64,000 bases of DNA, from IMG/VR virus record IMGVR_UViG_3300029561_000002, positions 1 through 64,000 of that record. One strand, written 5' to 3'. Position 1 is the stretch's first letter. Each line of letters starts with the position of its first letter. Below the pieces are notes generated by a model that saw nothing but the letters and a program-made list of their open reading frames with translations, was not told where the DNA came from and ran no database searches. Origin of the DNA: a virus. Of the stretch, positions 17,722 through 57,685 are shown piece after piece. Both the position numbers and the translations under genes were made by a program.

Positions 17722-17954
17722 TTATATCACACCCTTTTTTTTTATTATGCGAAAACACACTATTTATTCAATTTACCAATTTTTATAGTGAAATGTTGTA
17801 GAATATATAATGTAGATGATGTTTATACAGACATTATACTACAGCAGTTTAATACTGTAAATGGGCTGAATTGCCGGAAATTTATCAAAGCTGCTCTCCT
17901 GTGATAAAAAAAGTGCTTAAATATCCGGCGGTCAGTCCATAAAAGATAGGTGAT

Positions 17955-18380
17955 TTGATGAAACAAAAAACGAAAATACTCTTAATATTGATACTCACAG
18001 CCGCATTGATAAACACTAGCGTTCGTTACATGCTTGTTGAGTTTCCAAACGTACAGGAAAGCGTGCATCTAGCGAACACCCAGAAACATGCTTCAGACGT
18101 GCGCAGAGCAGCCCATATTAGTGTGCCAGTATATCACACGCAAGGCATTGTTTGCAAAAGCATAATTTATTCTGCGATCACGAAGTTTATATTTGAGAAT
18201 ACAAAGATTCTGATCTATATCTGGCAATTCCCGAGAGCAAATATTTTTGTCACAGTCCGTACTATTGCATTGATGTGGGAGTATAGTGAAAACAGAACAA
18301 ATGTTGGAACAATATTTCCCACTAACCGAACATATATTATTGTACAAAGCTGGTCGGGAGGTATGGTTTATGGACTATAA
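17955..18380 (+). CDS. Hypothetical protein with N-terminal TM/signal segment (weak)
   Basis: AGGTGA RBS. Only the N-terminus looks protein-like; the rest may be non-coding or decayed. Confidence 0.2.
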   Translation: MMKQKTKILLILILTAALINTSVRYMLVEFPNVQESVHLANTQKHASDVRRAAHISVPVYHTQGIVCKSIIYSAITKFIFENTKILIYIWQFPRANIFVTVRTIALMWEYSENRTNVGTIFPTNRTYIIVQSWSGGMVYGL

Positions 18381-18489
18381 GAAAGAAATTATTAGTATGA
18401 TACAAAAGATAGAAAGTGTAAGATTCTTGGCGATGATTTATAGCTTTACACATACTCTTTTTGAGAAAGAAAAGAAGCAGGGAGATTAA
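18370..18489 (+). CDS. Small hypothetical protein (39 aa)
   Basis: GGGAGG RBS 8 nt upstream. Ends within the bidirectional terminator. Confidence 0.3.
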   Translation: MDYKKEIISMIQKIESVRFLAMIYSFTHTLFEKEKKQGD

Positions 18490-18504
18490 TCCCTGCTTCT
18501 TTCT
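18474..18504. terminator. Bidirectional terminator between convergent genes
   Basis: Stem GAAGCAGGGA/TCCCTGCTTC with a 6-nt loop and T-rich flanks. Confidence 0.6.
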
Positions 18505-18862
18505 ATTTGGCGAATCTTTCAATGAACTTCCAAAACAATTCTTTGTCTTCTGATGATAATTGATAGTATTTCATAATAGCTTCTTTTGCCTTGGAATCCT
18601 CAGTGCCTATTTCAGCACATATAGAAGAGAAATCTTTGTCCAATTTTAGATCCTTGGGTAATTCTCCTTTATTGATCCAGTCTTCGTTAATCCCGAATGC
18701 TTGGCAAATATCTTTGATAACGCTTTTACTTGGATTAGCATTGTCGTCATTCAAAAGTTTCCAAACATACTGAGGAGTTTTTCTAATTGCTTTCCCTATC
18801 TCAGTTTGGGATTTTTGACTTTCCAAAAGTACCTCTCGGACTCTAATGAGAACGTCCGTCAT
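18503..18862 (-). CDS. XRE-family HTH repressor (CI-like)
   Basis: HTH: SQTEIGKAIRKTPQYVWKLLND. GGAGGTGAGG RBS before the ATG at 18862. Divergent from the early operon. Confidence 0.7.
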   Translation of the reverse strand: MTDVLIRVREVLLESQKSQTEIGKAIRKTPQYVWKLLNDDNANPSKSVIKDICQAFGINEDWINKGELPKDLKLDKDFSSICAEIGTEDSKAKEAIMKYYQLSSEDKELFWKFIERFAK

Positions 18863-18916
18863 TTCCTCACCTCCCAATATCATAATACATCTTAGAGAAA
18901 GAAAAGTCAATAAAAA

Positions 18917-18969
18917 TTTAAACTGAGTTTAAAGTTATGCTTGACAGATAAACTGAGTTGTAGTAATAT
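18917..18969 (+). promoter_or_regulatory. Early promoter with repeated operator-like boxes
   Basis: TTGACA (18941-46), 17 nt spacer, TAATAT (18964-69). TAAACTGAGTT occurs twice (18919-29 region and 18949-59); the first copy sits inside the near-palindrome TTTAAACTGAGTTTAAA. Confidence 0.5.
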
Positions 18970-19029
18970 TAAACCAAGTTGAAAAACTGACGCAAAAAAA
19001 ACAACTCACTAAACAGAAAGGAGAAAAAT

Positions 19030-19185
19030 ATGGAAGTATTAAAAAACAAAGATATTGAAGACGGAAAACGAATTGCCGATATTTTCGCAACATTATCAGA
19101 AGAAAACAAAAATATGGCAATCGTTTATTTGTCAGCCCTTAGAGATAAGGAAATTGCCGATTCCAGTAAAAAGGAGGTAAATTAG
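19030..19185 (+). CDS. Small early protein (51 aa)
   Basis: AAAGGAG RBS. First ORF downstream of the early promoter. Below the ORF-track cutoff. Confidence 0.4.
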   Translation: MEVLKNKDIEDGKRIADIFATLSEENKNMAIVYLSALRDKEIADSSKKEVN

Positions 19186-19254
19186 ATGAATTTATACGAT
19201 GTAGCGCTTTTCTTTTCTATTGCAGCAATCATTTTAAATATAATCACTTTTTTC

Positions 19255-19794
19255 TTAAATCGAAAGTAAATCTTTGCTTTCTTTTGGTATTTGAAGAGTA
19301 TATATTTTATTCTTCTTGTTTGTGATTATTTTTAATGTGATAAAATCTTTGCTCAATTTAATATTAGCAGGAATGTCAAACAGGACAATTTCAAATATTC
19401 CTTGTGATGGTTGCAAAGAGATTGGAAAATCCGCACTGAATATTCTTTCAGTGATGGGAATATCTGTTTCATTATACTTTGGATAATAACGTTCAGCAAC
19501 CCACCTATGGGTTAGAACACATGAATACGAAGCGCGATGATTTAAAAGTAAAGAAACTCTGGTAATAATTATAGGAGAAGATGAATTGTTCTGAAAGATT
19601 AAACCTAGTTTGATAGACTTTTTGTTTTCTACATTTAAAGTGCACAGTGTTTCCAATGAAACAGAAATATTTGTTCGTTTACTCCAAAGTGAATGAATGA
19701 ATTGAAATAGAGAAAGAACAAATCCTGCGATCGCAATAACGGTTGTAAGCAAAGACTTATTTTCTACAACAAATTTAACAATGGTACTCAGCAT
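19255..19794 (-). CDS. Membrane-anchored protein (candidate lysogen-expressed exclusion factor)
   Basis: N-terminal TM segment LLTTVIAIAGFVLSLFQFI. GGAGG RBS. Lies opposite to the early operon, next to the repressor. Confidence 0.5.
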   Translation of the reverse strand: MLSTIVKFVVENKSLLTTVIAIAGFVLSLFQFIHSLWSKRTNISVSLETLCTLNVENKKSIKLGLIFQNNSSSPIIITRVSLLLNHRASYSCVLTHRWVAERYYPKYNETDIPITERIFSADFPISLQPSQGIFEIVLFDIPANIKLSKDFITLKIITNKKNKIYTLQIPKESKDLLSI

Positions 19795-19844
19795 AATTAA
19801 AACCTCCATTTTTTTAATTAGAGTATACCACAGAAAGGAGAAAC

Positions 19845-20567
19845 ATGAATAACTTAACAGTAACAGAGTACAAGAATATTCGAGTGCTCACTACACAGCA
19901 GATTGCTGAAGCGTATGGAACTGATACAAAAGTTGTTTCATATAACTTCAACCACAACAAAGATAGATATGTTGATGGAAAACATTATATTTGCTTGACG
20001 GGAGATGAGCTTCGGGCGTTTCGTGAAAATCACGATTTGCCAAGTAATCTCAATAAAATCTACCTCTGGACAGAAAAAGGAGCATTCCTCCATGCAAAGT
20101 CGCTGAACACCGACAAGGCGTGGGAAGTGTATGACAGACTGGTGGATGAGTATTTCGATAAGCCCAAATTACCATCATGGACTATGGATGACAAAATTCA
20201 GATTCTTGCACAGGGAAACATCGAGCTTAAAGAAAAGATTGATGCTGTCAATGATGACTTGCAGGAGTTCAAAAGAGATATGCCATTGCTTGCATTGGAA
20301 TGTCAGAAAATCACAAAGGCAAAGAACCAGAAAGTAGTTCCAATTTTAGGTGGAAAGAATGCACCAGCATATAAAGATAATTCATTGCGTCAGCTCGTGT
20401 ACAGTGATATTGATGCACAGCTCCGCAGGGAATTTGGTGTGAACACCTACAAGGCAATCAAGAGAAACCAGTGCGATATGGCAATAAAAATCATAAACGA
20501 ATATGAGCTGCCGATGTATTTGAAAGATCGCATTGATGATGCGAATGCTCAGAGTAGTTTCTTATGA
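19845..20567 (+). CDS. Antirepressor-like protein (ORF6N/ORF6C type)
   Basis: NIRVLTTQQIAEAYGTDTKVVSYNFNHNKDRYVDGKHY matches the ORF6N pattern. Confidence 0.65.
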   Translation: MNNLTVTEYKNIRVLTTQQIAEAYGTDTKVVSYNFNHNKDRYVDGKHYICLTGDELRAFRENHDLPSNLNKIYLWTEKGAFLHAKSLNTDKAWEVYDRLVDEYFDKPKLPSWTMDDKIQILAQGNIELKEKIDAVNDDLQEFKRDMPLLALECQKITKAKNQKVVPILGGKNAPAYKDNSLRQLVYSDIDAQLRREFGVNTYKAIKRNQCDMAIKIINEYELPMYLKDRIDDANAQSSFL

Positions 20568-42509: not shown

Positions 42510-44234
42510 ATGAACGTTTATCGAACAAGAGAAGTGCTGAAAACTTGCAGCATTTTTGACTTGAAATTAAAAGTGGCTTTCTATGCAAGGGTAAGCACGG
42601 AATCAGAAGACCAACAAGTTTCTATACATCACCAGGACGAATATTACAGAAACTTCATTGCTAAAAATAAAAACTGGGTATTTGTTGGCGCGTACATTGA
42701 CAACGGAATATCGGGAATACGAACTGAGAAAAGGGACGAATTTCAACGCATGATGGCAGATGCAAAAACTGGGAAGATCGATATGATTGTAACGAAAGAA
42801 ATTACCAGATTTGCGAGAAATACGTTAGATAGTATAAGATATACAAGGGAATTGCTAATGTATGGTGTATGCGTATGGTTTCAAAATGACAACATCAACA
42901 CGATTGACGAAGATAGCGAATTAAGACTTACCATAATGTCCGGAATTGCCCAAGATGAATCAAGAAAGCTCTCCAATCGAATAAAATTCGGACATGCACA
43001 GTCGATAAAAAATGGTGTAGTCCTCGGCGCTCGAATATACGGATACATCAAAAAAGACGGAAAACTTACAATTGATCCCAAAACAGCTCCAATGGTAAAA
43101 GAGATATTTGAAAAATATTCTACAGGAGAATGGTCTACATCCACTATTGAGAAATACCTGTACAAAAAAGGATATCGAAATTACAAAGGTGGAAAACTCA
43201 GCCGAGATAATATCAAAAAGATAATCAAGAACCCGAAATACAAAGGTTATTATTGCGGCGGTAAAGTAAAAGTTGTCGATATGTTCACAAAAAAGCAAGA
43301 GTTTTTGCCAGAGGACGAATGGACAATGTACAAAGATGACGGTAACCATGTTCCACAGATTGTAGATGAATCTGTATGGGATAAAGCAAACGTTATTATG
43401 CAAACACGGAGCGATGCAATCAAATCCCACAGAACGTCTTTCAAACAAAACAATTTGTTTACCGGGTATATCTTTTGCGGTAACGATGGAGCGCCGTACT
43501 GGATGAAGCAGCACACTATAAGAGGGCGTGAAGATGCAAGATGGGTATGCAGCTATCGCATAAAAAACGGAGCGCAAAGCTGCAACTCTTTTGGTATACG
43601 TGAGAAAGAATTAAGGGCAATGCTTGCAGACCTTATCAATAAATCCGGGGATATCCAAATAGCTATTGAAAAATATATAAGTTTGGCTGAAAGGAACATA
43701 GACTTCAGCAACGATGGAGCTGAGATAAGCCGACTTAAAAACATGGTTCTTCAGTTGGAGAAAAAGAAAGACAAACTTCTCGATCTTAATCTGGATGGAA
43801 TCATAACAAACTCTGAATATCTTGAAAAAAATGAAAAATTCAAGAATGAAATCCAAGACATAAGCAATAAACTTTCCGAACTGGAATCGAAAGAAGAAGC
43901 CAATAAAGATTCCCATTTGAAATTAAAAAAAATCGGAAAGATATTAAATGATTTGCAAGGAGTTGGCCCAGAAGATATTACCAAAACGGTTCTGGGAGAA
44001 TTTTTGGACAAAATAGTAATAAATCCAAAACGCCCGCAGGAGTGCGAAATTTTGTTCTTTTTAAAGACCGGAGATGTAAAAAAAAAGTCAATAATCGAGC
44101 AGGATAAACAAGGCTGTTCTGAATACTTTTTTTTAAATAAGTTCTCAGAACGACACGCCGTATTTTACAGGAAAATCAACTATGTGGATGGATGCGAAAA
44201 GGAATTTAACTACACTTACGCATTTGCAATCTAA
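42510..44234 (+). CDS. Large serine recombinase (integrase)
   Basis: N-terminal resolvase domain (FYARVSTESEDQ..., KEITRFARN), recombinase domain, Cys cluster and C-terminal coiled coil. 574 aa. Confidence 0.85.
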   Translation: MNVYRTREVLKTCSIFDLKLKVAFYARVSTESEDQQVSIHHQDEYYRNFIAKNKNWVFVGAYIDNGISGIRTEKRDEFQRMMADAKTGKIDMIVTKEITRFARNTLDSIRYTRELLMYGVCVWFQNDNINTIDEDSELRLTIMSGIAQDESRKLSNRIKFGHAQSIKNGVVLGARIYGYIKKDGKLTIDPKTAPMVKEIFEKYSTGEWSTSTIEKYLYKKGYRNYKGGKLSRDNIKKIIKNPKYKGYYCGGKVKVVDMFTKKQEFLPEDEWTMYKDDGNHVPQIVDESVWDKANVIMQTRSDAIKSHRTSFKQNNLFTGYIFCGNDGAPYWMKQHTIRGREDARWVCSYRIKNGAQSCNSFGIREKELRAMLADLINKSGDIQIAIEKYISLAERNIDFSNDGAEISRLKNMVLQLEKKKDKLLDLNLDGIITNSEYLEKNEKFKNEIQDISNKLSELESKEEANKDSHLKLKKIGKILNDLQGVGPEDITKTVLGEFLDKIVINPKRPQECEILFFLKTGDVKKKSIIEQDKQGCSEYFFLNKFSERHAVFYRKINYVDGCEKEFNYTYAFAI

Positions 44235-44372: not shown

Positions 44373-45050
44373 GTGATAACCATGAATCATACCGCATATG
44401 ACGTAATGAGAGAATATATGATCGAGGGAGCAGAGCTGGACGGACCATACCAGTTCCCCATGATGCCACGGTATACTGGCAGACCTGGAACGGATACTGT
44501 CGACTTCAAAGACAGCTTTGACCGGCGGATAAAGAACCATAGGGACTTGACCGTCAATTTCTATATCCATGACAACGAATTTGAGAAAATCTGGAATTGT
44601 CCGGATAAATATATTGAGCATCTAAAATGCTTCAACAGTGTGATCGCACCGGATTTCAGCATGGCAGTCGGAGAAGGCGGTATGCCATTTGCAATGAACA
44701 TCTGGCAGAAGTACCGCAACCATGCGATAGCACATTATCTGCATATGAACGGAATCCGTATAATTCCAAACGTGAACATACCGCCGGAATACTGCTATGA
44801 TTGGATTTTTGACGGAATACCGAAGAAAAGCACAGTAGCTTGCTGTACCAATGGGCGAGTGAAGTCAAAAGCATCACGACTGGAATTTTGTAATGGGTTT
44901 CAAGAGATGGTCCGGAGATTGGAGCCACTAAGAGTAATCATCGTTGGGCGGATACCACAGGAACTGCAAACAGATATAGAAATTATCAATTTCAAAAGCA
45001 GAAACCAGAAGATTAAGGACAGGGAGGGAAAATATGGGATTCTCAACTGA
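44373..45050 (+). CDS. DUF4417-like protein
   Basis: NFYIHDNEFEKIWNCPDKYIEHLKCFNSVIAPDFSM resembles DUF4417 (from memory). Confidence 0.45.
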   Translation: MITMNHTAYDVMREYMIEGAELDGPYQFPMMPRYTGRPGTDTVDFKDSFDRRIKNHRDLTVNFYIHDNEFEKIWNCPDKYIEHLKCFNSVIAPDFSMAVGEGGMPFAMNIWQKYRNHAIAHYLHMNGIRIIPNVNIPPEYCYDWIFDGIPKKSTVACCTNGRVKSKASRLEFCNGFQEMVRRLEPLRVIIVGRIPQELQTDIEIINFKSRNQKIKDREGKYGILN

Positions 45051-45186
45051 ACGATCAGCACACAACAAAGTGCGTAGAAAAAAAGACAAGACAGAGCGAA
45101 AGGTGAAAGTCCGGAAACAACGGACCACATACAAAACGAAGAATACGGCTAGGAGAAAATCCGAGGGATTAAATAAATTAAATTGA
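45034..45186 (+). CDS. Small highly basic protein (50 aa)
   Basis: AGGGAGGG RBS 5 nt upstream. Lys/Arg-rich. Confidence 0.3.
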   Translation: MGFSTERSAHNKVRRKKDKTERKVKVRKQRTTYKTKNTARRKSEGLNKLN

Positions 45187-45940
45187 TTCGTGATTTTACA
45201 CAGCCCCTCAGAAGATGCTATAGATTAATATATGCAAGATAGACAAAATGGAAATCTAGGAAAAACGGTTATTTTTGAGTTACCCCTTTTTTTAGTCATT
45301 TTTCGGACTTTTTCTATGTCTGAATATTGCAAATATTCAAGAGCCTCCAGAAATATCGTTCGTTTCACAACCGGTACGACCAATTTTATAAAAGCCTGTG
45401 GATCACCTGCGGACCGGTGCCGGGATTTTCTGGCGGTCAATAACTGATACTCTAATTTCGCCCACAACGCCCGCAAAACTGACAAGGCTAGACTTCTTCA
45501 ACCGTAATCTAATCGGCCGTTAAAAAGCCGAATAGGGCGGTTGTACAGTGGATCCAAAATAGAACATACTTTTGCCACTGTTCGGACGCTGCGCCCCGGA
45601 TCGGTGCCAGCTGCACGCGAGAGCACGACAAAAAGAGCCAGAAACGGCTATATATAATCATAATATCACCATACCGGGATTCCGTCAACCGTGAGTATTG
45701 ATTGATAAAAACGTGCAAAAACGGCTTGAAAATCAGGCAATGATAAAAATATCAATGAACGTCAAAGAGACGAAAAACGGCGAAAAAAGCAAATCAACAA
45801 CCGTATTTCCGGGCAAACAAAAGTTAAGTTGTCAAGGCACACGGCTTGTAGATAGATTTCACAAGCCTGATCCGCTCCCCAGGCCGTGAACCTGGCGCCG
45901 GACTGGATACCGGAAGAGCAGCAGAAAAAGAGCAGCGTTT

Positions 45941-46318
45941 TTACTGCTCTAAATAATTTATACATGCGACTTGTGGCAAGCCCCGGAAAAACTCAGAAAA
46001 ACCGCCGTCAGTAATATTATATTGCCGATCAAAAACCGGGATAATCTGCCCGTTTTTAAGCTCCATGCAAGACAGCTGTAAAAATCCGTCTTTTTTCGTC
46101 GACCGGTGCAAGGCGTACCGCATGACGGACGCGTCACCAGATCGCGTTGTTACCGGTGGCAGATCATACCAGATCAGCGGGACAGTACCGGAAGAAACCG
46201 CATTAAACACTTGCGCAGCGTCCTTTTTTGCGGTTGAATTGATCTTGTCAACAACGGAAAAATCACCGCTTTTTATAGCGGTGATGGTTTGCTTTTGCGT
46301 GGCTTTTCTAATTTTCAT
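45941..46318 (-). CDS. Hypothetical protein (last gene of the minus-strand island)
   Basis: AAAGGAG RBS before the internal ATG at 46318. Terminator hairpin at about 45927-45950. Confidence 0.5.
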   Translation of the reverse strand: MKIRKATQKQTITAIKSGDFSVVDKINSTAKKDAAQVFNAVSSGTVPLIWYDLPPVTTRSGDASVMRYALHRSTKKDGFLQLSCMELKNGQIIPVFDRQYNITDGGFSEFFRGLPQVACINYLEQ

Positions 46319-46472
46319 TATAATGTTCTCCTTTTGTTCTCTCCTGGTAAAATGCAATTAATGTTATTTCTATCGGTTCTTTACTGGAAAAGTAACGAAA
46401 ATTTCTAAATTTATTGAAATCATGTTCTAAGTGGTTTTCTTCGATATAGTTTATTATTTGCATTAAGTTCAT
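46308..46472 (-). CDS. Small hypothetical protein (54 aa)
   Basis: Unlisted ORF MNLMQIINYIEENHLEHDF.. that overlaps the next start. Weak RBS. Confidence 0.3.
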   Translation of the reverse strand: MNLMQIINYIEENHLEHDFNKFRNFRYFSSKEPIEITLIAFYQERTKGEHYNEN

Positions 46473-46567
46473 TTTTTTTCTTTCTTCCCTGTACCCATGG
46501 GAGCCGGGTTTTTATTAGATGCCGAAAAAGTATTGACTATTTAAGGAAAAAATGATATATTGTGATA

Positions 46568-46640
46568 GCTGGATGCTATTCGAATTTTTCGAATGCATTT
46601 TCTGGAGCGGTCTAACGTGCGTTGTTAGATCGCTTTTTTA
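46568..46640 (+). ncRNA. Candidate small RNA 0 (promoter plus intrinsic terminator)
   Basis: TTGACT (46533-38), 17 nt spacer, TGaTATATT (-10 hexamer at 46556-61). 10-bp terminator stem 46607-16/46624-33 followed by TTTTTT. Confidence 0.45.
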
Positions 46641-46693
46641 TCGGTCCATCAATTTAACTTGACTTTTCCAGCTGCATGATGTATTATGATTGT

Positions 46694-46830
46694 ATCAGCT
46701 AGCAACAGTTGCTGGTTCTTAACGTACCATGATTCCGTTGAGAGTCGCCACAGTCTACGGTGTGGTGTTGAGTTGAAAAGCATGTTTATAAGGATATGAA
46801 AAAAGGCTATTATATTTTTTGTAATGGTCT
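46694..46830 (+). ncRNA. Candidate small RNA 1 (conserved 64-nt block at 46718-46781)
   Basis: TTGACT (46659-64), 17 nt spacer, TATTAT (46682-87). The block is paralogous to 46894-46957. The 3' end is uncertain (T-run at 46829-37). Confidence 0.4.
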
Positions 46831-46873
46831 TTTTTTTATTGACTTTTTCCTGTAATCGTGCTATATTATTAAT

Positions 46874-47018
46874 CAGTAACACATGTGTTACTTTTCAACG
46901 GGCCACGATTCCGTTGGAAGTCGTTCCGATCAATGGCGAAACGTTGAGTTGAAAAATATTGTTATATATTTGCTAAAATGCAAAAAGCGGGAAGGCGTGA
47001 CAGATGTCACGCCTTTTC
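46874..47018 (+). ncRNA. Candidate small RNA 2 (conserved 64-nt block at 46894-46957)
   Basis: TTGACT (46839-44), 17 nt spacer, TGcTATATT (46862-67). Terminator GGCGTGAC/GTCACGCC (46994-47013) followed by TTTT. Confidence 0.45.
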
Positions 47019-47234
47019 ACTGTTTTCTATAATCTCTCGGTACATTCTTGCGCCGCCGTCCCATTCACTCCTGCCGTTCAAATACTCTTCGGCGGTTTCT
47101 TCGCGAACTTCTCCGGAATTTGCGAAAAGTGCAATTTTCCCGGTGCTTTTCTGCACAACCTCGGTTGCTGATAGTGTGCAAAAAGGCTCACAGCTTTCGC
47201 GGAAATTCTCCGCGCGGTCCATCAGCTCTATCAT
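47007..47234 (-). CDS. Hypothetical protein (75 aa)
   Basis: ATGA-coupled to the upstream small ORF. Same frame as track ORF 47007..47300. Confidence 0.45.
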   Translation of the reverse strand: MIELMDRAENFRESCEPFCTLSATEVVQKSTGKIALFANSGEVREETAEEYLNGRSEWDGGARMYREIIENSEKA

Positions 47235-47353
47235 TTTTTTAGCTGCGGGATTGAAAACGCTTTCAAATCCTCGTCGGTAAGTACGTTTTTCACGTACCAC
47301 TGAATATTTTTTACCGCTTCTGATTTTTTTAATAACAATTCCTCTTTTCTCAT
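47231..47353 (-). CDS. Small hypothetical protein (40 aa)
   Basis: GGAGGA RBS 7 nt before the ATG at 47353. Confidence 0.4.
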   Translation of the reverse strand: MRKEELLLKKSEAVKNIQWYVKNVLTDEDLKAFSIPQLKK

Positions 47354-47449
47354 GTTTTTTTCCTCCATTTTTGATTTATTTTATTATACCATTTTTTTGG
47401 CTGGTATTAAAGGGCCGCCGGGGAAATGCTCCCCGGTACGCTTACTGGT

Positions 47450-47818
47450 CTAATTCCTTTTTGTGAACTCTATTTCCGTGTAATTTTCTCCGGTTACCTC
47501 ATTTGCAAATGCCAGGATTCCGGCTATTGTAAAATCGAAGCGGGTAAAATCAAAACCTCTTTGCGAAAGTCTGTATTCGTAGGAACGCCCGCAACCTTCA
47601 ACGTCGTAATATGTGCCGTCGACGTGTAAGGCGTTAGGCTGTACCACTGGACAACCTTTTTTGCTTGCGTCGCGTCTTTGGTAGCTTCCAAAATCCGCGA
47701 TAACATGCAGACCGTCCAGCGTGTCAAATTCTGCGCGAACTCTGCAATTTGGAACGTCTGAGCCGTTTCTGTAGCCTGTTCCTGTGCATCCGTATTCTAC
47801 TAATACTAATTTTCCCAT
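47450..47818 (-). CDS. Hypothetical protein (122 aa)
   Basis: ORF track. GC-richer than the surrounding genes. Confidence 0.55.
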   Translation of the reverse strand: MGKLVLVEYGCTGTGYRNGSDVPNCRVRAEFDTLDGLHVIADFGSYQRRDASKKGCPVVQPNALHVDGTYYDVEGCGRSYEYRLSQRGFDFTRFDFTIAGILAFANEVTGENYTEIEFTKRN

Positions 47819-47899
47819 AATTTCCCTTTCTGGTCTGCCATCATCAGCACCGGGAGACCGTCCCGCGGTGGACGCCCCTAAAATCTGAGGCGTTTCGGC

Positions 47900-48109
47900 T
47901 TATGCTTCTATTGTTCGCCCGCGGCCGTCCATAAATACCTCCCCGGCGGGCCACTGGCAAAGCTTTGCCCGTCCCTCTTTTACAACACGCTCATTATAGC
48001 GCCCGGCGTGCTGAAGTGCTTTGTATGTGATTGTTTTAGCGGTTTTGTTCGTGATTTCGAATGTTAAACCGCTTTCATAGTATCTTTTTCCGATTTCAAA
48101 TTTTTTCAT
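47900..48109 (-). CDS. Hypothetical protein (69 aa)
   Basis: ORF track. AGGTAAAAGGA RBS region. Confidence 0.5.
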   Translation of the reverse strand: MKKFEIGKRYYESGLTFEITNKTAKTITYKALQHAGRYNERVVKEGRAKLCQWPAGEVFMDGRGRTIEA

Positions 48110-48185
48110 ATCCTTTTACCTCTTTTCATATTTTTTGAAATCCGGCGGTTGCGTTGGGGCTACGGCTTGACCGCCGCCGGAAAGG

Positions 48186-48425
48186 TTAGAACTTGCTCGG
48201 TTTTTCGTACCGGATAACCGGAACTACTTCACCGGATTCCAAAATCTGCAAGCCATTGTACATTGGGCCGTTAAGCCCCCGGAGCTTCGGCTGCCATTGC
48301 AGTTCTTCCCGGGTCTCTGGGCTGTAATACGTCCCGTAAATCAAGGCCCGCATTTCTTCCAGCGTCTTGATCTCTTCGGGGAGATCGTAAACACATTTTC
48401 CGACTGTTGATGTTCCAATTATCAT
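48186..48425 (-). CDS. Hypothetical protein (79 aa)
   Basis: AAGGAGG RBS. ATGA overlap with the upstream ORF. Confidence 0.5.
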   Translation of the reverse strand: MIIGTSTVGKCVYDLPEEIKTLEEMRALIYGTYYSPETREELQWQPKLRGLNGPMYNGLQILESGEVVPVIRYEKPSKF

Positions 48426-48586
48426 ACTGTTTTCCTCCTTATGACTACTGACATAGCAGCTAATAACATTTCGTGGACTTTGCTTTCCTCTCTGAATGTG
48501 TATTTATCTTTGCCTGTCGCTTTCATCCAGATGATTGAATAAAAGCAATTGATACTTGATAAAGCTTTAAGGATAGTGTCTTTCAT
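48422..48586 (-). CDS. Small hypothetical protein (54 aa), first gene of the minus-strand operon
   Basis: GAGAGGGAAT RBS before the ATG at 48586. Confidence 0.4.
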   Translation of the reverse strand: MKDTILKALSSINCFYSIIWMKATGKDKYTFREESKVHEMLLAAMSVVIRRKTV

Positions 48587-48665
48587 TTTATTCCCTCTCT
48601 TTCTCCCGGATCAGCGTCCGGGGTGAATGTTTTTTGTTTTCCTTTGATGGTTATATAATACTATA

Positions 48666-48783
48666 ATTAAGCACTAATATCAATTGACAAAATGCACAAA
48701 TTAAGCACTAATTATTTATGGCAAATTGTACATTATGATTAAGCACTAAAATTATTGACAATTAAGCACACGCATATTATAAT
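48666..48783. promoter_or_regulatory. Divergent control region with four ATTAAGCAC boxes and a consensus promoter
   Basis: Boxes at 48666, 48700, 48738 and 48761. TTGACA (48755-60), 17 nt spacer, TATAAT (48778-83); the box fills the spacer directly after the -35. Confidence 0.6.
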
Positions 48784-48808
48784 GAAGAAAAATAAAGGAG
48801 GAATAAAC

Positions 48809-49012
48809 ATGGCAGAATTAACAGCAGAAGAAAAAGCAATAAAGAATCGAGAAGCAGTAAAGAAATGTATGAAAAATAAGGACAGAATAAATGTGATCTT
48901 ACCACAGGGAACGCTTGACAGAATAAACGCATATGGATTAAAAACAAACGCGTTCGCGAGGGAATTAATTCTTGCAGAACTTGATAAAATGGATAGAATG
49001 AAAAAAATGTAA
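48809..49012 (+). CDS. Ribbon-helix-helix (CopG/Arc-like) regulator
   Basis: AAAGGAGG RBS. RINVILPQGTLDRINAYGLKTNAFARELILAEL fits a beta-strand plus two helices. Confidence 0.6.
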   Translation: MAELTAEEKAIKNREAVKKCMKNKDRINVILPQGTLDRINAYGLKTNAFARELILAELDKMDRMKKM

Positions 49013-49059
49013 ATTAAGCACAAATTACTATTGACAATTAAGCACTAATGGTATATACT
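49013..49059 (+). promoter_or_regulatory. Second consensus-like promoter with two ATTAAGCAC boxes
   Basis: Boxes at 49013 and 49037. TTGACA (49031-36), 17 nt spacer, TATACT (49054-59). Confidence 0.55.
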
Positions 49060-49085
49060 GTAACCATAGAAAGGAAGTGGTTACA

Positions 49086-49583
49086 GTGGAAACAGAGCAA
49101 TTTAGGATTAATGAAAATTCTGATTTCCCGGGTGTCTATATAATTGTAAATATGGACAATCAAAAAGTATATATTGGCTCAACCAGAAATATACGCAAAA
49201 GATTGAAAACACATTTATATAGTCTAAAAAAAGGGAAACATTCGTCAAGTACTTTTCAAAAAGATTTTGATAGTGGTAATTCATTTATTGCGTATCCTTT
49301 AACCCGGGTTGAGCTATTGCCAAAGTATTTAAAGGACCATAATTTAAGGTATTTTGAATATATGGCGATTAAAATGTTTGATTCTACGAATCCAGAAAAA
49401 GGATACAATAAAGTAAATCGCAAAGCAGAATCATACGAATTAGGAAATATAAAGCAAGCGAATTCTTTATTTAACGAGTTCTTTGAAGTGAAAGAAAAAT
49501 ACAAAACGAGAACAGACTTGGAATATTATAAAGAATATTACAAAGAAGAATTAGAATTCTTTTTAAAACAAAGCATGAGTTAA
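49086..49583 (+). CDS. GIY-YIG homing-endonuclease-like protein (I-TevI type N-terminus)
   Basis: PGVYIIVNMDNQKVYIGSTRNIRKRLKTHLYSLKKGKHSS..FQKDF...YFEYMAIKMF..GYNK. Start is 49077 or 49086. Confidence 0.8.
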   Translation: METEQFRINENSDFPGVYIIVNMDNQKVYIGSTRNIRKRLKTHLYSLKKGKHSSSTFQKDFDSGNSFIAYPLTRVELLPKYLKDHNLRYFEYMAIKMFDSTNPEKGYNKVNRKAESYELGNIKQANSLFNEFFEVKEKYKTRTDLEYYKEYYKEELEFFLKQSMS

Positions 49584-50363: not shown

Positions 50364-50780
50364 ATGAGAAAATTGGCAGAAGCAGATTTGAATATCGTCG
50401 CAGCATACATGGACGATGACATCAGAGAACAAGTAGCCAGCGAACTTGCACCATGTGAGCCGGGAGAATTTCTGGCAAGGTACTGCGAACTGGTACCGGA
50501 ATTTGAGGATTTGTTAGAAGATGAGTTCTCGATTGAACTAGAAAATGGTGAATTTTTCAAAGTCAATGAAGACGAGGAAAATTTCACTGAAGAAGAGAGA
50601 GCTGATATAGAAAAACATCAGCTCGTAAAAAAATCCGCTAAATGCGGAACTTTAACAGAAACATTTGCCCGGAATTATGCAAGGGTTCCGGAGAAATTAA
50701 TAAAAAAGCTCACGCCGGAAGAACTCGGGGAGCTTGTGGACGCTTTCTACAAATGTTACGAGGACGGAAAGAGGGCATGA
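50364..50780 (+). CDS. Hypothetical acidic protein
   Basis: AAAGGAGG RBS. Confidence 0.5.
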   Translation: MRKLAEADLNIVAAYMDDDIREQVASELAPCEPGEFLARYCELVPEFEDLLEDEFSIELENGEFFKVNEDEENFTEEERADIEKHQLVKKSAKCGTLTETFARNYARVPEKLIKKLTPEELGELVDAFYKCYEDGKRA

Positions 50781-52739: not shown

Positions 52740-53483
52740 ATGAATGAAATGATGATTTTTAGCAATCCAGAATTTGGAAACGTAAGAACAGTGACGATAG
52801 ACGGAAATCCTTGGTTCGTTGGAAACGATGTAGCAAAAGCATTAGGATACGTAAAAGAACGAAACGCCATTGCTAATCATGTCGATAAAGAGGACGCCCT
52901 GAAATGCAGCCTCCCTTCAAACAGCGGAGTACAGGAAACAATCGTGATAAATGAGAGCGGTTTGTTTTCACTTATACTATCAAGCAAACTCGATTCTGCA
53001 AAAAGATTTAAACATTGGGTAACTGCAGAAGTCCTTCCTTCTATCCGTAAAACCGGAAAGTATGAAGTTGGTCAGAAACAAGATTCTTACCAGATAGCTG
53101 ATCCGATAGAGCGAGCTAAAAGATGGATTGAAGAACAGCAGGAAAAGCAGTTACTTGAACAGAAAGTGCAGGAGCAGAAGCCCAAAGCGGAGTACTTCGA
53201 TTCTCTTGTAGACAATAGACTGCTCACAACATTTCGGGACGCTGCGAAAGAATTTCACATGCCACCCAAGACGCTTACGAAATGGCTGGCAGATAACGGG
53301 TATATTTATCGAGACCGGCACAATATCATAAAACCATACGAACAGCATCGAAAGTCAGGACTTTTCCAGATGAAAGATTTTTCAACGCCTTATGGGTATT
53401 CGAATGTTCAAACATATATCACTGTAAAAGGCAAGGAAACATTTCGACTGTTACTTCGGGGACAGGGACTGATTAGGGCATAA
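52740..53483 (+). CDS. Antirepressor (Bro-N domain + KilAC-like C-terminus)
   Basis: FSNPEFGNVRTVTIDGNPWFVGNDVAKALGY...AIANHV is Bro-N-like. The C-terminus contains an HTH, TFRDAAKEFHMPPKTLTKWL. Confidence 0.7.
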   Translation: MNEMMIFSNPEFGNVRTVTIDGNPWFVGNDVAKALGYVKERNAIANHVDKEDALKCSLPSNSGVQETIVINESGLFSLILSSKLDSAKRFKHWVTAEVLPSIRKTGKYEVGQKQDSYQIADPIERAKRWIEEQQEKQLLEQKVQEQKPKAEYFDSLVDNRLLTTFRDAAKEFHMPPKTLTKWLADNGYIYRDRHNIIKPYEQHRKSGLFQMKDFSTPYGYSNVQTYITVKGKETFRLLLRGQGLIRA

Positions 53484-53496
53484 AAAAAGAGAACCA

Positions 53497-53730
53497 TTAC
53501 GGTTCCCTTTTGAGATCATCAGTGGTCAGTTTGATTGACACATCTGGTTTTGGCTCAATTATCAATTGACATTCCAGAAAATCAAGAATCTGAATTAGTT
53601 CATCTGCGGATATGCTTCCCCTTGAAAATTTATTTGCAAGTGATTGCGGGAGCATCCCAAGGTGCTGAGCTAATTGAACACTGGTTACTTTTTTCATCTT
53701 CATTATTTGCTTTATCTTATCAGAAACCAT
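53497..53730 (-). CDS. XRE-family HTH regulator
   Basis: KKVTSVQLAQHLGMLPQSLANKFSRG. AGGAGG RBS. Minus-strand promoter TTGACT, 17 nt spacer, TATGAT. Confidence 0.65.
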   Translation of the reverse strand: MVSDKIKQIMKMKKVTSVQLAQHLGMLPQSLANKFSRGSISADELIQILDFLECQLIIEPKPDVSIKLTTDDLKREP

Positions 53731-53812
53731 ATAAATACCTCCTATTGACATTATCATAATCAAAAACGTTTCAATAGTCAATAAAAAATACTCATAAATG
53801 TGTACGAACTAC

Positions 53813-53841
53813 TTGCAAACATAATCAATTAGATGTATAAT
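53813..53841 (+). promoter_or_regulatory. Promoter of the resolvase gene
   Basis: TTGCAA (53813-18), 17 nt spacer, TATAAT (53836-41). Flanked by two ACTCATAAAT direct repeats. Confidence 0.5.
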
Positions 53842-53871
53842 TAACTCATAAATAAACGGGAGGGATTATAT

Positions 53872-54456
53872 ATGAAGATAGGATATGCGAGAGTATCAAC
53901 AGTAGAACAGAACGAAGCGAGACAGATGGAAGCATTGAGAGAAGAAGGCGTTGATAAAATTTATATGGACAAGAAGTCCGGAAAGGATTTCAACCGTCCT
54001 GAATATCAGAAGATGATCGCTTCCCTTCAAAAAGGTGACGTACTGGTGATCCATTCCATTGATCGACTTGGAAGGAATTACGAAGAAATTATAGCTGAGT
54101 GGAGAAAAATTACAAAAGAGATTGAAGCAGATATCGTTGTCCAGGACATGCCATTACTTAACACCACGCAAAACAAAGATTTAACCGGAACTCTGATTGC
54201 TGATATCGTATTGCAGCTTCTTTCATACGTAGCTCAGAGAGAGCGTGAAAATATTCGCCAGAGACAGAAAGAAGGAATTGCGATTGCGAAAGCTCAAGGG
54301 AAATATAAAGGACGAGCAAAAAAAGAGGTAGACAAAGAACTCTTCGAGAAAACAAAGCAAAGATGGCAGGCTGGGGAAATTACCAAAGTTCAGTTTGCCG
54401 AAATTGTGGGAGTGTCAAGAGGAACACTATATAAAATGTTGGGAGGGGAACAGTAA
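53872..54456 (+). CDS. Small serine recombinase (resolvase/invertase family)
   Basis: MKIGYARVSTVEQNEARQ..., SIDRLGRN, and C-terminal HTH FAEIVGVSRGTLYKML. Confidence 0.85.
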   Translation: MKIGYARVSTVEQNEARQMEALREEGVDKIYMDKKSGKDFNRPEYQKMIASLQKGDVLVIHSIDRLGRNYEEIIAEWRKITKEIEADIVVQDMPLLNTTQNKDLTGTLIADIVLQLLSYVAQRERENIRQRQKEGIAIAKAQGKYKGRAKKEVDKELFEKTKQRWQAGEITKVQFAEIVGVSRGTLYKMLGGEQ

Positions 54457-56620: not shown

Positions 56621-56692
56621 AGCGCATTGGCGAAGTGGCAACGCATCGGACTTTGACTCCGCTATTCGTGGGTTCGAATCCCACATGCGCCG
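56621..56692 (+). tRNA. tRNA-Gln (anticodon TTG)
   Basis: Hand-folded cloverleaf. Acceptor AGCGCAT/ATGCGCC (A1.C72 mismatch), anticodon loop CT-TTG-AC, T arm GTGGG-TTCGAAT-CCCAC. Confidence 0.7.
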
Positions 56693-56923
56693 CTCTGCAT
56701 CGGATTTCGCCTTTCCTCTGATGCAGGTTGGATTTTCTTTTTCCCTTTGCCACCTATCACAACGGTGATGATTAAAGGAACTGTCAAATGTTCCGGGTGG
56801 CTTTGCCTTAGTTGGCAAGATTAATTTCTTCTATGGTTTACCTTTGTTGCAGCTGGCGGTCAAGAACTGCAACAGTAGTAAAAAGACAGATATCGCAGCG
56901 ACCCTGTATCTTTTTGCTACTCA

Positions 56924-56997
56924 GGAAACTTAGCTCAGTTGGTTAGAGCAGCCGGCTCATAACCGGTCGGCCCTGGGTTCGAACCCCAGAGTTTCCA
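56924..56997 (+). tRNA. tRNA-Met (anticodon CAT), elongator-like
   Basis: Perfect acceptor GGAAACT/AGTTTCC, D arm TAGCTCAGTTGGTTAGAGCA, anticodon loop CT-CAT-AA, T arm CTGGG-TTCGAAC-CCCAG. Confidence 0.85.
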
Positions 56998-57296
56998 TTT
57001 CTCCCAAAGCTGTCCATCCGTTTTATGGATAGAAAAAACTGCCGAATGTGTGTATGTGGGTTGTTTTTCAGAAGGTACGTAACGGCGTAGCCGGAGTGAA
57101 AAGACAACTTCCCGTTCGGTTCTGTCTCTGAGTTGAATATGTCGCCAATGAGTGCACGCTGACGACAGGGAGTTTTCAAGAGGCATTTCAGAAATAATCC
57201 TCCGAAACAACTCCGTGGGACTGGCACGGATGAAAACAGTCTAGTGGAAAGCATAACACGATAAACCTATTGCTAACCCGGTACAATCCGGGTTAA

Positions 57297-57368
57297 GGCA
57301 GGATGGAGAAGTGGAATCTCACAAGGCTCATATCCTTGAGAACGGCGGTTCAAATCCGTCTCCTGCAA
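57297..57368 (+). tRNA. tRNA with CAT anticodon (Met or Ile2) and a G1.A72 mismatch
   Basis: Acceptor GGCAGGA/TCCTGCA (mismatch at 1-72), D stem GAGA/TCTC, anticodon stem CAAGG/CCTTG with loop CT-CAT-AT, T arm GGCGG-TTCAAAT-CCGTC. Confidence 0.7.
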
Positions 57369-57551
57369 TTAATTCGTTCGTTCTATACTGTCAGTGCACA
57401 GGCGGTCTATGGTTCAAGCGGATTAAACCCATGGGAAAAGGTTGATGTTTATCCTGGTAACTGCTGGACAGTACGAAAAACATTATCATATGTTGTGCAA
57501 ATGGAAATCATCTCATTCATTTACCGAGGTGATCAGCCGTGGTAAGCGGCA

Positions 57552-57622
57552 TGGAATGTAGCTCAGTGGTAGAGTACACTACAAAAGCGGTGAGGTCGCA
57601 GGTTCGATTCCTGCCATTCCGT
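57552..57622 (+). tRNA. tRNA-like gene with a non-canonical anticodon arm (anticodon undetermined)
   Basis: Normal acceptor, D arm (TAGCTCAGTGGTAGAGT) and T arm (GCAGG-TTCGATT-CCTGC). The anticodon arm is 16 nt (CACTACAAAAGCGGTG): a 4-bp stem, an 8-nt loop and no U33. Confidence 0.5.
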
Positions 57623-57685
57623 TTCCGGTAAATTGCCATTACCGGAAAGCATTTCCAAAATGCTCAAATTTACCTTCTGATTGGT

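What the first reader, a model, noticed from the sequence alone, without database searches (positions are those of the whole stretch)
45941..49059. GC-richer minus-strand operon of small unknown proteins under an RHH-controlled divergent promoter: candidate anti-defence island
Seven or eight short ORFs (40-125 aa) run opposite to the rest of the genome. I recognise no motifs in any of them. Spot counts give about 55% GC (line 47581) against about 37% GC (line 38461). The operon diverges from a strong consensus promoter region that drives a small RHH regulator. This layout matches the acr-aca style of anti-defence loci: small novel inhibitors plus an autorepressor acting on a very strong promoter.
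Basis: inference. Interest (0 to 1): 0.7.

Follow-up and report, generated by a model that had tools for sequence, protein, structure and literature searches.

The report
Ribozyme-cut phage accessory gene island
This stretch of a temperate gut phage holds small orphan genes beside an Arc-like repressor, and it also carries a self-cleaving hammerhead ribozyme and small RNA genes that partly resemble CRISPR repeats, while the only recognisable anti-CRISPR gene lies on the other side of the shared promoter region.

Summary
The eight small minus-strand genes are real: each has a ribosome-binding site, relatives conserve them, and two give confident orphan folds. The consensus promoter and the Arc-like regulator are real too. 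The GC claim fails: 42.7% against 40.3% for the window, within 1 sd.

The region is not one operon. It is a mosaic of at least three transcription units. Three things were missed:
- A type II hammerhead ribozyme at 47829-47900(-), 58.8 bits, cuts the transcript between the 69-aa and 122-aa genes.
- An inserted cassette (46525-47455) carries three plus-strand small-RNA genes, each with its own promoter and terminator.
- Two of these RNAs contain GTC-hairpin-TGAGTTGAAA. This resembles type I-C CRISPR repeats of gut Clostridia but fails the published solitary-repeat threshold.

A 9-nt operator, ATTAAGCAC, occurs six times, two copies at each of three promoters. It co-varies with the regulator across relatives.

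The only recognisable anti-defence gene is an AcrIC5-family homolog at 50364-50780(+). It lies on the rightward, regulator-led arm, outside the reported coordinates.

Verdict: an anti-defence reading is plausible by association but unproven for the leftward proteins. Each component belongs to a known kind. The unusual points are an RHH regulator where known Aca proteins are HTH, and the degenerate repeat-like RNAs.

The parts
45929..45950 (-). intrinsic-terminator-like hairpin ending the 54-aa/125-aa unit
   Evidence: 8-bp stem followed by a T run on the minus strand
45941..46318 (-). 125-aa orphan protein (ATG at 46318). Very widespread in ~75-85 kb gut Caudoviricetes contigs.
   Evidence: 1219 homologs; one labelled from a Roseburia inulinivorans MAG; AF2 pLDDT 92.5; no Foldseek match; RBS AAGGAGAA
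46308..46472 (-). 54-aa orphan protein
   Evidence: conserved in L011, L012, L014 and L177
46533..46640 (+). small-RNA unit 0: promoter TTGACT-17-TATATT, then a ~70-nt RNA with one hairpin and an intrinsic terminator
   Evidence: fold z = -5.96
46659..46838 (+). small-RNA unit A: promoter (46659-46687), hairpins P1 and P2, type I-C-repeat-like module GTCGCCACAGTCTACGGTGTGGTGTTGAGTTGAAAA (46744-46779), terminator
46839..47018 (+). small-RNA unit B: promoter (46839-46867), hairpins P1 and P2, repeat-like module GTCGTTCCGATCAATGGCGAAACGTTGAGTTGAAAA (46920-46955), shared bidirectional terminator (46989-47018)
47007..47234 (-). 75-aa acidic orphan protein (ATG at 47234, ATGA overlap with the upstream gene). 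Its stop codon lies inside the bidirectional terminator.
47231..47353 (-). 40-aa orphan protein (true start is the second ATG, preceded by GGAGG)
47383..47410 (-). internal promoter-like site (TTAATA-16-TATAAT with TG) for the 40/75-aa pair
47407..47449 (-). junction hairpin H1 (terminator-like). It recurs at cassette boundaries in relatives.
47450..47818 (-). 122-aa orphan protein
   Evidence: 27 homolog clusters; AF2 pLDDT 91; no PDB fold match, and the only BFVD match is an uncharacterised ortholog
47829..47900 (-). type II hammerhead ribozyme; predicted cleavage after GUC, between 47871 and 47870
   Evidence: RF02276, 58.8 bits, GA 37, E 1e-10; stems I and III and the loop I-tail pseudoknot covary
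47900..48109 (-). 69-aa basic orphan protein
48122..48181 (-). junction hairpin H2, conserved at cassette boundaries
48186..48425 (-). 79-aa orphan protein
48422..48586 (-). 54-aa orphan protein, first gene of the leftward unit
48655..48683 (-). leftward promoter-like site (TTGATA-17-TATTAT)
48666..48769 (.). four copies of the operator ATTAAGCAC (starting at 48666, 48700, 48738 and 48761), placed in the spacer and just upstream of the -35 box of the two divergent promoters
48755..48783 (+). consensus sigma-70 promoter (12/12) for the RHH gene
48809..49012 (+). 67-aa Arc/RHH-like regulator
49013..49059 (+). third promoter (TTGACA-17-TATACT) with two more ATTAAGCAC operators (starting at 49013 and 49037)
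49077..49583 (+). GIY-YIG homing endonuclease
50364..50780 (+). 138-aa acidic protein (pI 4.4) with an N-terminal AcrIC5 domain
   Evidence: PF22147, 36.4 bits, cutoff 27; 49% identical to the L005 AcrIC5 homolog

Best explanation
The window comes from a temperate siphovirus-like gut phage; relatives run to about 75-85 kb and the host is probably a member of the Lachnospiraceae. Coordinates 45941-49059 are the leftward half of a divergent accessory locus controlled by shared operators. The locus sits between the integrase/DUF4417 module and the early rightward genes.

Control (inferred). An Arc-like RHH protein (48809-49012) probably binds the 9-nt operator ATTAAGCAC. The operator occurs as one copy in the spacer and one just upstream of the -35 box at each of three promoters: leftward, its own, and a second rightward one. 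The regulator would therefore throttle all three after an initial burst, as Aca proteins do.

Rightward arm. It carries an AcrIC5-family gene. This is shown by homology. AcrIC5 blocks target-DNA binding by type I-C Cascade.

Leftward arm. It is a mosaic of exchangeable cassettes, not a single operon.
- Unit 1 runs 54 aa, 79 aa, 69 aa, hammerhead, 122 aa. The type II hammerhead cleaves the polycistronic RNA between 47871 and 47870. The upstream piece is left with a 3' hairpin and a cyclic phosphate. The 122-aa mRNA is left with a 5'-OH and a stem I hairpin. This would uncouple the stability and expression of neighbouring cistrons; that step is inferred.
- Unit 2 is a separate cassette (46525-47455). 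It holds its own promoter, a 40-aa/75-aa gene pair, and three convergent small-RNA genes. Two of these RNAs carry a degenerate type I-C repeat: GTC, a hairpin, then the Cas5c handle TGAGTTGAAA.
- Unit 3 encodes the 54-aa and 125-aa proteins.

Most likely function: early-expressed accessory or counter-defence genes. The protein functions are unknown. The RNA units may act as Cas5c/Cascade decoys, but that is speculative.
For: - Phage context and integrase.
- Hammerhead: above the Rfam gathering score. Its core is intact, and stems I and III and the pseudoknot show compensatory changes in L009, L229 and L232. Published precedent exists for hammerheads near integrases that flank single genes or short gene blocks in prophages, including the anti-restriction gene ardA (PMC3088659).
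- Operators: six copies, found only here in the 64 kb. Regulator and repeat co-vary in five relatives.
- AcrIC5 domain in the window and in relatives. AcrIC5 orthologs are reported in Firmicutes (PMC7913775).
- Cassette mosaicism.
- Small-RNA genes: promoters and terminators. Structure is 99% paired, with 5 compensated pairs.
- Repeat resemblance: the handle is identical to that of 120+ type I-C arrays of gut Clostridia. Unit A shares 29 of 36 aligned columns with the repeat of an Anaerotignum array that has a complete I-C cas operon, and 0 of 200 shuffles reach that score.
- RacrIC1 is documented next to an AcrIC5 homolog (PMC10651486).
Against: - No leftward protein matches a known anti-defence protein.
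- The 125-aa family is highly conserved: over 1200 clusters, with at least 70% identity among the 120 best listed. That is unlike fast-evolving Acrs.
- The AcrIC5 homolog is 1.3 kb outside the finding and on the other arm.
- The hammerhead accompanies only about 10% of 122-aa homologs (6 of 58), so it is dispensable.
- The repeat-like RNAs score only 12.0 and 10.6 bits (E about 1-3) against a covariance model of 61 real I-C repeats. They reach 20.3 bits by blastn, against the 41.1-bit SRUFinder cut-off.
- No CRISPR array with their exact GTTGAGTTGAAA handle exists in GTDB representatives or JGI metagenomes.
- No sampled spacer targets this phage.
Confidence: 0.5

Rival explanations
1. The leftward genes are ordinary accessory, host-takeover or lysogeny-associated 'moron' genes placed next to the attachment/integrase module. 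They have no counter-defence role, and their closeness to an Acr gene is incidental.
For: - The location directly follows the serine recombinase and DUF4417 genes and an ~890-nt non-coding stretch.
- The phage is temperate.
- There is no homology to any anti-defence family.
- The 125-aa gene behaves as a conserved core gene of the clade.
- The rightward arm also holds non-defence genes: a homing endonuclease, a Bro-N/ANT antirepressor and a resolvase.
Against: - A CI-like HTH_3 repressor and a second divergent control region lie elsewhere, at 18.5-19.85 kb.
- All eight proteins are soluble, so they do not look like membrane exclusion proteins.
- They share operators with the arm that carries AcrIC5.
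- Cassette turnover is high.
Confidence: 0.3
2. Small-RNA units A and B are ordinary phage regulatory RNAs, for example base-pairing or protein-sponging RNAs, or remnants of a decayed repeat. Their likeness to type I-C repeats is coincidental or vestigial and has no effect on CRISPR-Cas.
For: - The covariance model of I-C repeats gives E about 1-3.
- blastn reaches only 20.3 bits.
- The loops are 8 nt instead of 4, an extra U lies before the handle, and the last handle base is A instead of U/C.
- No array has this handle.
- Unit B is not significantly similar to any repeat beyond the handle (9% of shuffles reach its score).
- A conserved 5' two-hairpin domain has no counterpart in CRISPR repeats.
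- The family is confined to one small phage clade.
Against: - GTC, a hairpin and the 10-nt handle appear in the right order and orientation in both paralogs, although their stem sequences are completely different.
- Unit A matches a real repeat better than 200 of 200 shuffles.
- An AcrIC5 homolog sits in the same locus.
- The validated RacrIC1 was only 29/34 identical to the repeat it was tested against.
Confidence: 0.55
3. The small ORFs are not genes, and the region is non-coding or decaying DNA.
For: The ORFs are short and have no database families.
Against: - Every ORF has a ribosome-binding site or translational coupling.
- Protein-level conservation runs from 54% to 98% across many contigs.
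- Two AlphaFold models have pLDDT of 91 or more.
- Strand-specific skew is present.
Confidence: 0.03

Closest known systems
Type II hammerhead ribozymes in prophage operons (Rfam RF02276; Perreault et al. 2011, PMC3088659)
   Same: The core is CUGAUGA / GAAA / GUC, stem II is open, and a loop I-3' tail pseudoknot is present. It lies between small genes near an integrase in a temperate phage of Clostridia. The published examples flank single genes or short gene blocks, including the anti-restriction gene ardA.
   Different: Only one copy is present here rather than a flanking pair or triple. In relatives the same junction is occupied instead by a plain hairpin or a tRNA-like minihelix.
acr-aca operons (anti-CRISPR gene plus autorepressor on a strong promoter)
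   Same: An AcrIC5-family gene sits in a same-strand operon of proteins under 200 aa with intergenic gaps under 250 nt. A small DNA-binding protein and repeated operator sites overlap a consensus promoter.
   Different: The regulator is Arc/RHH-like, whereas Aca1-12 are all HTH proteins. It is the first gene rather than the last. The same operators also sit on a divergent leftward promoter and on a third promoter. The leftward genes have no Acr homology.
RNA anti-CRISPRs / solitary repeat units (Racr; Camara-Wilpert et al. 2023, PMC10651486), especially RacrIC1 next to AcrIC5
   Same: They are intergenic and solitary, and each sits downstream of its own promoter. They are transcribed in the sense of the repeat, contain GTC-hairpin-handle like a type I-C repeat, and share a locus with an AcrIC5 homolog.
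   Different: They fail the SRUFinder similarity threshold (20.3 against 41.1 bits). Compared with real repeats they have three 1-nt insertions, larger loops and a 50-nt structured 5' leader. They lie 3.4 kb from the Acr gene rather than within 1 kb, and no matching host array was found.
Arc/Mnt/CopG-type RHH repressors of temperate phages (e.g. the P22 immI region)
   Same: It is a small RHH protein with repeated operators at divergent promoters. Operator specificity is swapped between related phages.
   Different: The operators are six direct repeats of 9 nt arranged identically at three promoters. Binding has not been tested.

Membership tests
Hammerhead ribozyme type II (RF02276) | Score at or above the Rfam gathering threshold | tested here: met
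   58.8 bits against 37; E 1.3e-09 for the whole window and 9.6e-11 for the region
Hammerhead ribozyme type II (RF02276) | Intact catalytic core (CUGAUGA, GAAA, cleavage triplet GUC) with stems I and III closed and stem II open | tested here: met
   Alignment to the model; the core is invariant in the window, L005 and L009
Hammerhead ribozyme type II (RF02276) | Helices and the loop I-3' tail pseudoknot supported by covariation | tested here: met
   Stem III: CGCCUC/GGGGCG against CGGUC/GACCG against CGCUCC/GGAGCG. Stem I: CACCG/CGGUG against AGCCG/CGGCU. Pseudoknot: GGUCU/AGACC against UUGCCU/AGGCAA
Hammerhead ribozyme type II (RF02276) | Self-cleavage activity | not testable with these tools
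   Needs in vitro transcription or sequencing of 5'-OH and 2',3'-cyclic-phosphate RNA ends
acr-aca operon (AcaFinder guilt-by-association criteria) | Contains a homolog of a validated Acr | tested here: met
   PF22147 AcrIC5, 36.4 bits (cutoff 27), at 50364-50780 on the rightward arm. None was found among the eight leftward proteins.
acr-aca operon (AcaFinder guilt-by-association criteria) | All genes on one strand, intergenic gaps under 250 bp, proteins under 200 aa | tested here: met
   From the RHH gene to the AcrIC5-like gene the gaps are 64, 45, 54 and 15 nt and the sizes are 67-168 aa. Criteria.
acr-aca operon (AcaFinder guilt-by-association criteria) | The regulator is an HTH protein or a member of Aca1-12 | tested here: not met
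   The regulator is Arc/RHH-like. Aca1-12 all contain HTH domains. In relatives L003 and L006 an HTH_26 protein takes its place.
acr-aca operon (AcaFinder guilt-by-association criteria) | The regulator represses the acr promoter through operator sites | tested here: inconclusive
   Six ATTAAGCAC sites overlap three promoters and co-vary with the regulator across relatives. Binding and repression were not tested.
Racr / solitary CRISPR repeat unit (SRUFinder definition) | Sequence match to a known CRISPR repeat with a bit score of at least 41.1 | tested here: not met
   The best blastn-short score against 71 type I-C repeats is 20.3 bits, covering only the 10-nt handle. The covariance model of 61 repeats gives 12.0 and 10.6 bits, E 1.1 and 2.6. 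A gapped alignment of unit A to the Anaerotignum repeat gives 29 of 36 columns, with 0 of 200 shuffles as good.
Racr / solitary CRISPR repeat unit (SRUFinder definition) | Intergenic, solitary, not next to cas genes or other repeats, downstream of a promoter | tested here: met
   The units are 176 nt apart, and each has its own promoter and terminator. No cas gene was recognised among the window proteins that were scanned.
Racr / solitary CRISPR repeat unit (SRUFinder definition) | The host carries a CRISPR-Cas system of the matching subtype and repeat | tested here: inconclusive
   The host is not identified beyond one Roseburia-labelled homolog. Type I-C arrays with the TGAGTTGAAA handle are common in Lachnospiraceae and other gut Clostridia. 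None has the exact GTTGAGTTGAAA form.
Ribbon-helix-helix (Arc/MetJ/CopG) DNA-binding proteins | Significant match to an RHH family model | tested here: inconclusive
   The window protein has no Pfam hit above threshold; the best is the RHH end of HicB_lk_antitox at E 0.12. A 97%-identical protein is named Arc-like by NCBI, and the L005 positional equivalent passes Pfam Arc at 24.6 bits against 20.4.

The most novel reading that the evidence does not exclude
Units A and B would be a diverged form of RNA anti-CRISPR. They are self-contained small-RNA genes in which a degenerate type I-C repeat (the base of the stem plus the Cas5c handle UGAGUUGAAA) is fused to a conserved two-hairpin 5' domain. 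They occur as a tandem pair with different stems, perhaps to decoy two Cas5c/Cascade variants. They would act together with an AcrIC5-family protein, all under an RHH-type (non-HTH) Aca-like repressor, in an island whose mRNAs are cut by a hammerhead ribozyme. If so, similarity-threshold searches for solitary repeats miss a class of RNA decoys.
Probability: 0.22. Interest if true: 0.7.

Novelty: new variant of a known kind. Interest (0 to 1): 0.5.

Why it matters
If the reading holds, this one compact locus of an abundant gut-phage clade combines three layers of control over counter-defence. The first is a protein anti-CRISPR of the AcrIC5 family. The second is candidate RNA decoys for type I-C systems, which are very common in gut Clostridia. 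The third is ribozyme-mediated processing of the accessory transcripts.

It would give hammerhead ribozymes in phages a concrete role that can be tested. Their function has been unclear since 2011. It would also extend Aca-type regulators beyond HTH proteins. And it would show that published solitary-repeat searches are too strict to find degenerate repeat mimics.

If the reading fails, the region is an ordinary mosaic block of orphan phage genes with a known ribozyme inside it.

Tried and rejected
- **Close relatives:** megablast of 45000-49300 against INPHARED phages found no match.
- **Protein families:** Pfam, PHROGs and NCBIfam gave nothing for the eight leftward proteins.
- **PDB sequence searches:** the RHH, AcrIC5-like, 75-aa, 69-aa and 79-aa proteins gave only spurious or no hits.
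- **Structure searches:** AlphaFold2 plus Foldseek found no significant neighbour for the 122-aa protein (PDB and BFVD) or the 125-aa protein (PDB only), apart from an uncharacterised ortholog of the 122-aa protein.
- **Other RNA families:** an Rfam scan of 44800-49400 at E up to 5 found only the hammerhead.
- **Racr paper supplements:** k-mers from units A and B are absent; only the shorter GAGTTGAAA/GTGAGTTGAAA of canonical I-C solitary repeats occur there.
- **CRISPR arrays with the exact GTTGAGTTGAAA handle:** none in GTDB representatives. JGI metagenomes gave one hit that is not a CRISPR array.
- **Spacer matches:** 2265 spacers from 120 I-C arrays gave only chance 15-17-nt matches to the window and relatives.
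- **Cracr-type idea** (the sequence after the handle targets host cas promoters): no meaningful complementarity in 0.79 Mb of I-C loci.
- **Wider small-RNA family:** three IMG/VR pattern scans found only the same small clade plus random hits.
- **Target of the conserved P2 loop:** no complementary site in the window other than the units themselves.
- **Hammerhead as an obligate partner of the 122-aa family:** rejected, since only 6 of 58 loci carry one.
- **Main lysis-lysogeny switch:** judged less likely, because a CI-like HTH_3 gene and another divergent region lie at 18.5-19.85 kb.
- **GC-rich foreign island:** rejected.

Full report
**Context.** The 64-kb window is most of a temperate siphovirus-like phage genome. 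It encodes a tape-measure protein, a tail protein, an endolysin, a large terminase, a large serine recombinase (42510-44234) and a DUF4417 protein (44373-45050). Nothing close exists among deposited phage genomes. Many gut-metagenome contigs of 75-85 kb carry the same genes. One homolog is labelled as coming from a Roseburia inulinivorans MAG.

**Checking the observation.**
- Eight minus-strand ORFs lie between 45941 and 48586.
- Two start codons need correcting. The 45-aa ORF starts at its second ATG, which follows GGAGG, and so encodes 40 aa. The 97-aa GTG ORF starts at an ATG that overlaps the upstream stop (ATGA) and so encodes 75 aa.
- All eight have ribosome-binding sites or translational coupling, and all are soluble.
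- They are conserved at the protein level in relatives.
- Two of them give confident AlphaFold models, with pLDDT 91 and 92.5. They are real genes.
- AT and GC skew invert over 46-49 kb.
- The GC claim fails. The island is 42.7% GC against 40.3% for the window, and 19% of same-size windows are at least as GC-rich. The local maximum of 53.5% sits on an RNA element.
- A 12/12 consensus promoter at 48755-48783 drives a 67-aa protein.
- That protein is Arc/RHH-like by PHROG match, by the NCBI name of a 97%-identical protein, and by a Pfam Arc hit of its positional equivalent in a relative. Its own Pfam score is not significant.

- Rfam finds a type II hammerhead at 47829-47900 on the minus strand. 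It scores 58.8 bits against a gathering score of 37.
- It starts at the last base of the 69-aa gene's stop codon and ends 10 nt before the 122-aa gene's start codon.
- The CUGAUGA and GAAA boxes and the GUC cleavage triplet are intact. Cleavage is predicted between 47871 and 47870.
- Versions in relatives keep the core. They show compensatory changes in stem III, in stem I and in the loop I-tail pseudoknot: GGUCU/AGACC here, UUGCCU/AGGCAA in L009.
- This fits Perreault et al. 2011. They found type II hammerheads to be common in prophages near integrases. There they flank single genes or short gene blocks, including the anti-restriction gene ardA, and presumably cut long transcripts into shorter mRNAs.
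- The element is not fixed to one gene. Only 6 of 58 IMG/VR loci with a 122-aa homolog have one directly beside the gene.
- In the L001 group the same junction holds a terminator-like hairpin instead.

- Comparison with 16 related loci shows discrete cassettes joined at recurring hairpins, at 47407-47455 and 48122-48181.
- Coordinates 46525-47455 form one such cassette. It is present in L011-L014 and L141, partly present in L010, and absent from L001-L004.
- The cassette has a minus-strand promoter (47410-47383), the 40-aa and 75-aa genes, and a bidirectional terminator (46989-47018).
- Converging on that terminator are three plus-strand units. Each has a TTGACT-17-TATATT/TATTAT promoter and a terminator.
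- Units A and B are paralogs. Two helices are 99% paired across seven variants, and five base pairs are compensated.
- The 77-aa ORF on the opposite strand of these units is therefore almost certainly spurious.

**The small RNAs and CRISPR.**
- Both units contain GTC, a hairpin whose sequence differs completely between the two, and then GTTGAGTTGAAAA.
- The 10-mer TGAGTTGAAA occurs only in these two places in the window.
- It is the invariant 3' handle of a large family of type I-C repeats in gut Clostridia, Akkermansia and Bifidobacterium. Their form is GTC-stem-loop-stem-G-TGAGTTGAAAT.
- Solitary copies of that repeat type are listed as type I-C SRUs in gut viruses by Camara-Wilpert et al. 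2023.
- Unit A aligns with 29 identities over 36 columns to the repeat of an Anaerotignum array. That array sits beside a complete cas3-cas5c-cas8c-cas7-cas4-cas1c operon. With GTC and the handle held fixed, none of 200 shuffles of the middle reached the observed score.
- For comparison, the validated RacrIC1 was 29/34 identical to the repeat it was tested against, and it sits next to an AcrIC5 homolog.

Evidence against the CRISPR link:
- A covariance model of 61 real repeats ranks A and B first and second in the window, but at only 12.0 and 10.6 bits, E about 1-3.
- blastn gives 20.3 bits against the 41.1-bit threshold of SRUFinder.
- Unit B is not significantly repeat-like beyond the handle.
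- No array with the exact handle exists in GTDB representatives or JGI metagenomes.
- No sampled spacer hits the phage.
- The RNA family is confined to one small clade.

I therefore treat repeat mimicry as a lead with a probability of about 0.2-0.25, not as a finding.

**Regulation.**
- ATTAAGCAC occurs six times in the window, all on the plus strand and all between 48666 and 49045.
- Each of three promoters has one copy in its spacer and one just upstream of its -35 box. The promoters are the leftward one (48683-48655), the RHH promoter (48755-48783) and a second rightward one (49031-49059).
- Relatives with an 89%-identical regulator keep the same motif. Relatives with other small regulators at this position have different repeats in the same places: TATGTGCGTTAT, ATTACTCAAT and GCATAGTTTAATAAA.
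- That co-variation supports a regulator-operator pair. It implies that the leftward unit, the regulator and the downstream rightward genes are controlled together. Binding itself is inferred.

**Is it anti-defence?**
- The eight leftward proteins have no match in Pfam, PHROGs or NCBIfam, and the three searched against PDB sequences also have none.
- The two modelled proteins have no structural neighbour.
- The rightward arm runs RHH, GIY-YIG endonuclease, 139 aa, 81 aa, 138 aa, and ends in a protein whose N-terminus passes the Pfam AcrIC5 model (36.4 bits, cutoff 27). That protein is strongly acidic, with pI 4.4.
- Relatives place an AcrIC5 homolog directly after their Arc-like regulator.
- AcrIC5 orthologs are known in Firmicutes. 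The protein blocks DNA binding by type I-C Cascade.
- The rightward arm meets the AcrFinder-style operon criteria used by AcaFinder, except that the regulator is not HTH. All 12 validated Aca families are HTH.
- So the locus works like an acr-aca locus but is not a member of a known Aca family.
- The lysogeny-module alternative is weakened. A CI-like gene and a second divergent region lie at 18.5-19.85 kb, and the proteins are not membrane proteins. It is not excluded.

**Verdict.** The firm results are the hammerhead ribozyme, the operator system, the mosaic structure, the three small-RNA genes and the AcrIC5 homolog next door. The function of the leftward proteins and of the RNAs remains inferred.

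Noticed in passing
window 3-75 (+): RAGATH-18 RNA at 75.2 bits (gathering score 44.9). RAGATH motifs were defined by their association with genes found near twister and hammerhead ribozymes (from my own knowledge), so its presence in the same genome as the hammerhead fits that pattern.
   Followed up: no
window 5960-6032 and 6545-6614 (+): Two int-alpA RNA matches (45.4 and 57.3 bits; gathering score 35.8) bracket a 180-aa ORF (5992-6534) that lies between the tape-measure gene and the tail genes.
   Followed up: no
window 56621-57623 (+): A tRNA cluster: Gln(TTG), two Met(CAT), and a fourth tRNA (57551-57623) for which ARAGORN cannot assign an anticodon, although Rfam scores it at 48.4 bits.
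   Followed up: no
window 45051-45940: An ~890-nt stretch without convincing ORFs lies between DUF4417 and the island. It is 93-96% conserved in relatives that share the serine recombinase (L010, L013). In relatives with a tyrosine integrase (L001) it is replaced by unrelated sequence that contains its own repeats. It is a candidate attP or regulatory region. No Rfam hit.
   Followed up: partly
window 46533-46640 (+): Small-RNA unit 0 is a third promoter-terminator unit encoding a ~70-nt two-hairpin RNA (fold z-score -5.96). It has no similarity to units A and B or to any Rfam family.
   Followed up: partly
window 49077-49583 (+): A GIY-YIG homing endonuclease sits immediately after the regulator gene, behind its own operator-bearing promoter. 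It is present in L001, L002 and L009 and absent from L003 and L005-L008, so it looks like a mobile insertion in the control region.
   Followed up: partly
window 17020-19850: A second minus-strand block holds a LytTR-type response regulator (17020-17721) and a CI-like HTH_3 protein (18503-18910). It faces plus-strand ORF6N/ORF6C genes from 19845. This is probably the real lysis-lysogeny control region.
   Followed up: partly
L001 5370-5420: In relatives without the small-RNA cassette, the 122-aa gene is followed by a tRNA-like minihelix, GGCGUAACGGUUCCCGCCGGGUUCGAUUCCCGGCAACGCC, which has a canonical T-loop. It may be an RNase P or RNase Z processing site that plays the role the hammerhead plays elsewhere.
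   Followed up: no
L006 45-609 (-): A related phage carries a full-length ROOL RNA (349.7 bits) next to tRNA genes.
   Followed up: no
window 52740-54456 (+): A Bro-N/ANT antirepressor (52740-53483) and a small serine resolvase/invertase (53872-54456) lie on the rightward arm downstream of the AcrIC5 homolog.
   Followed up: no
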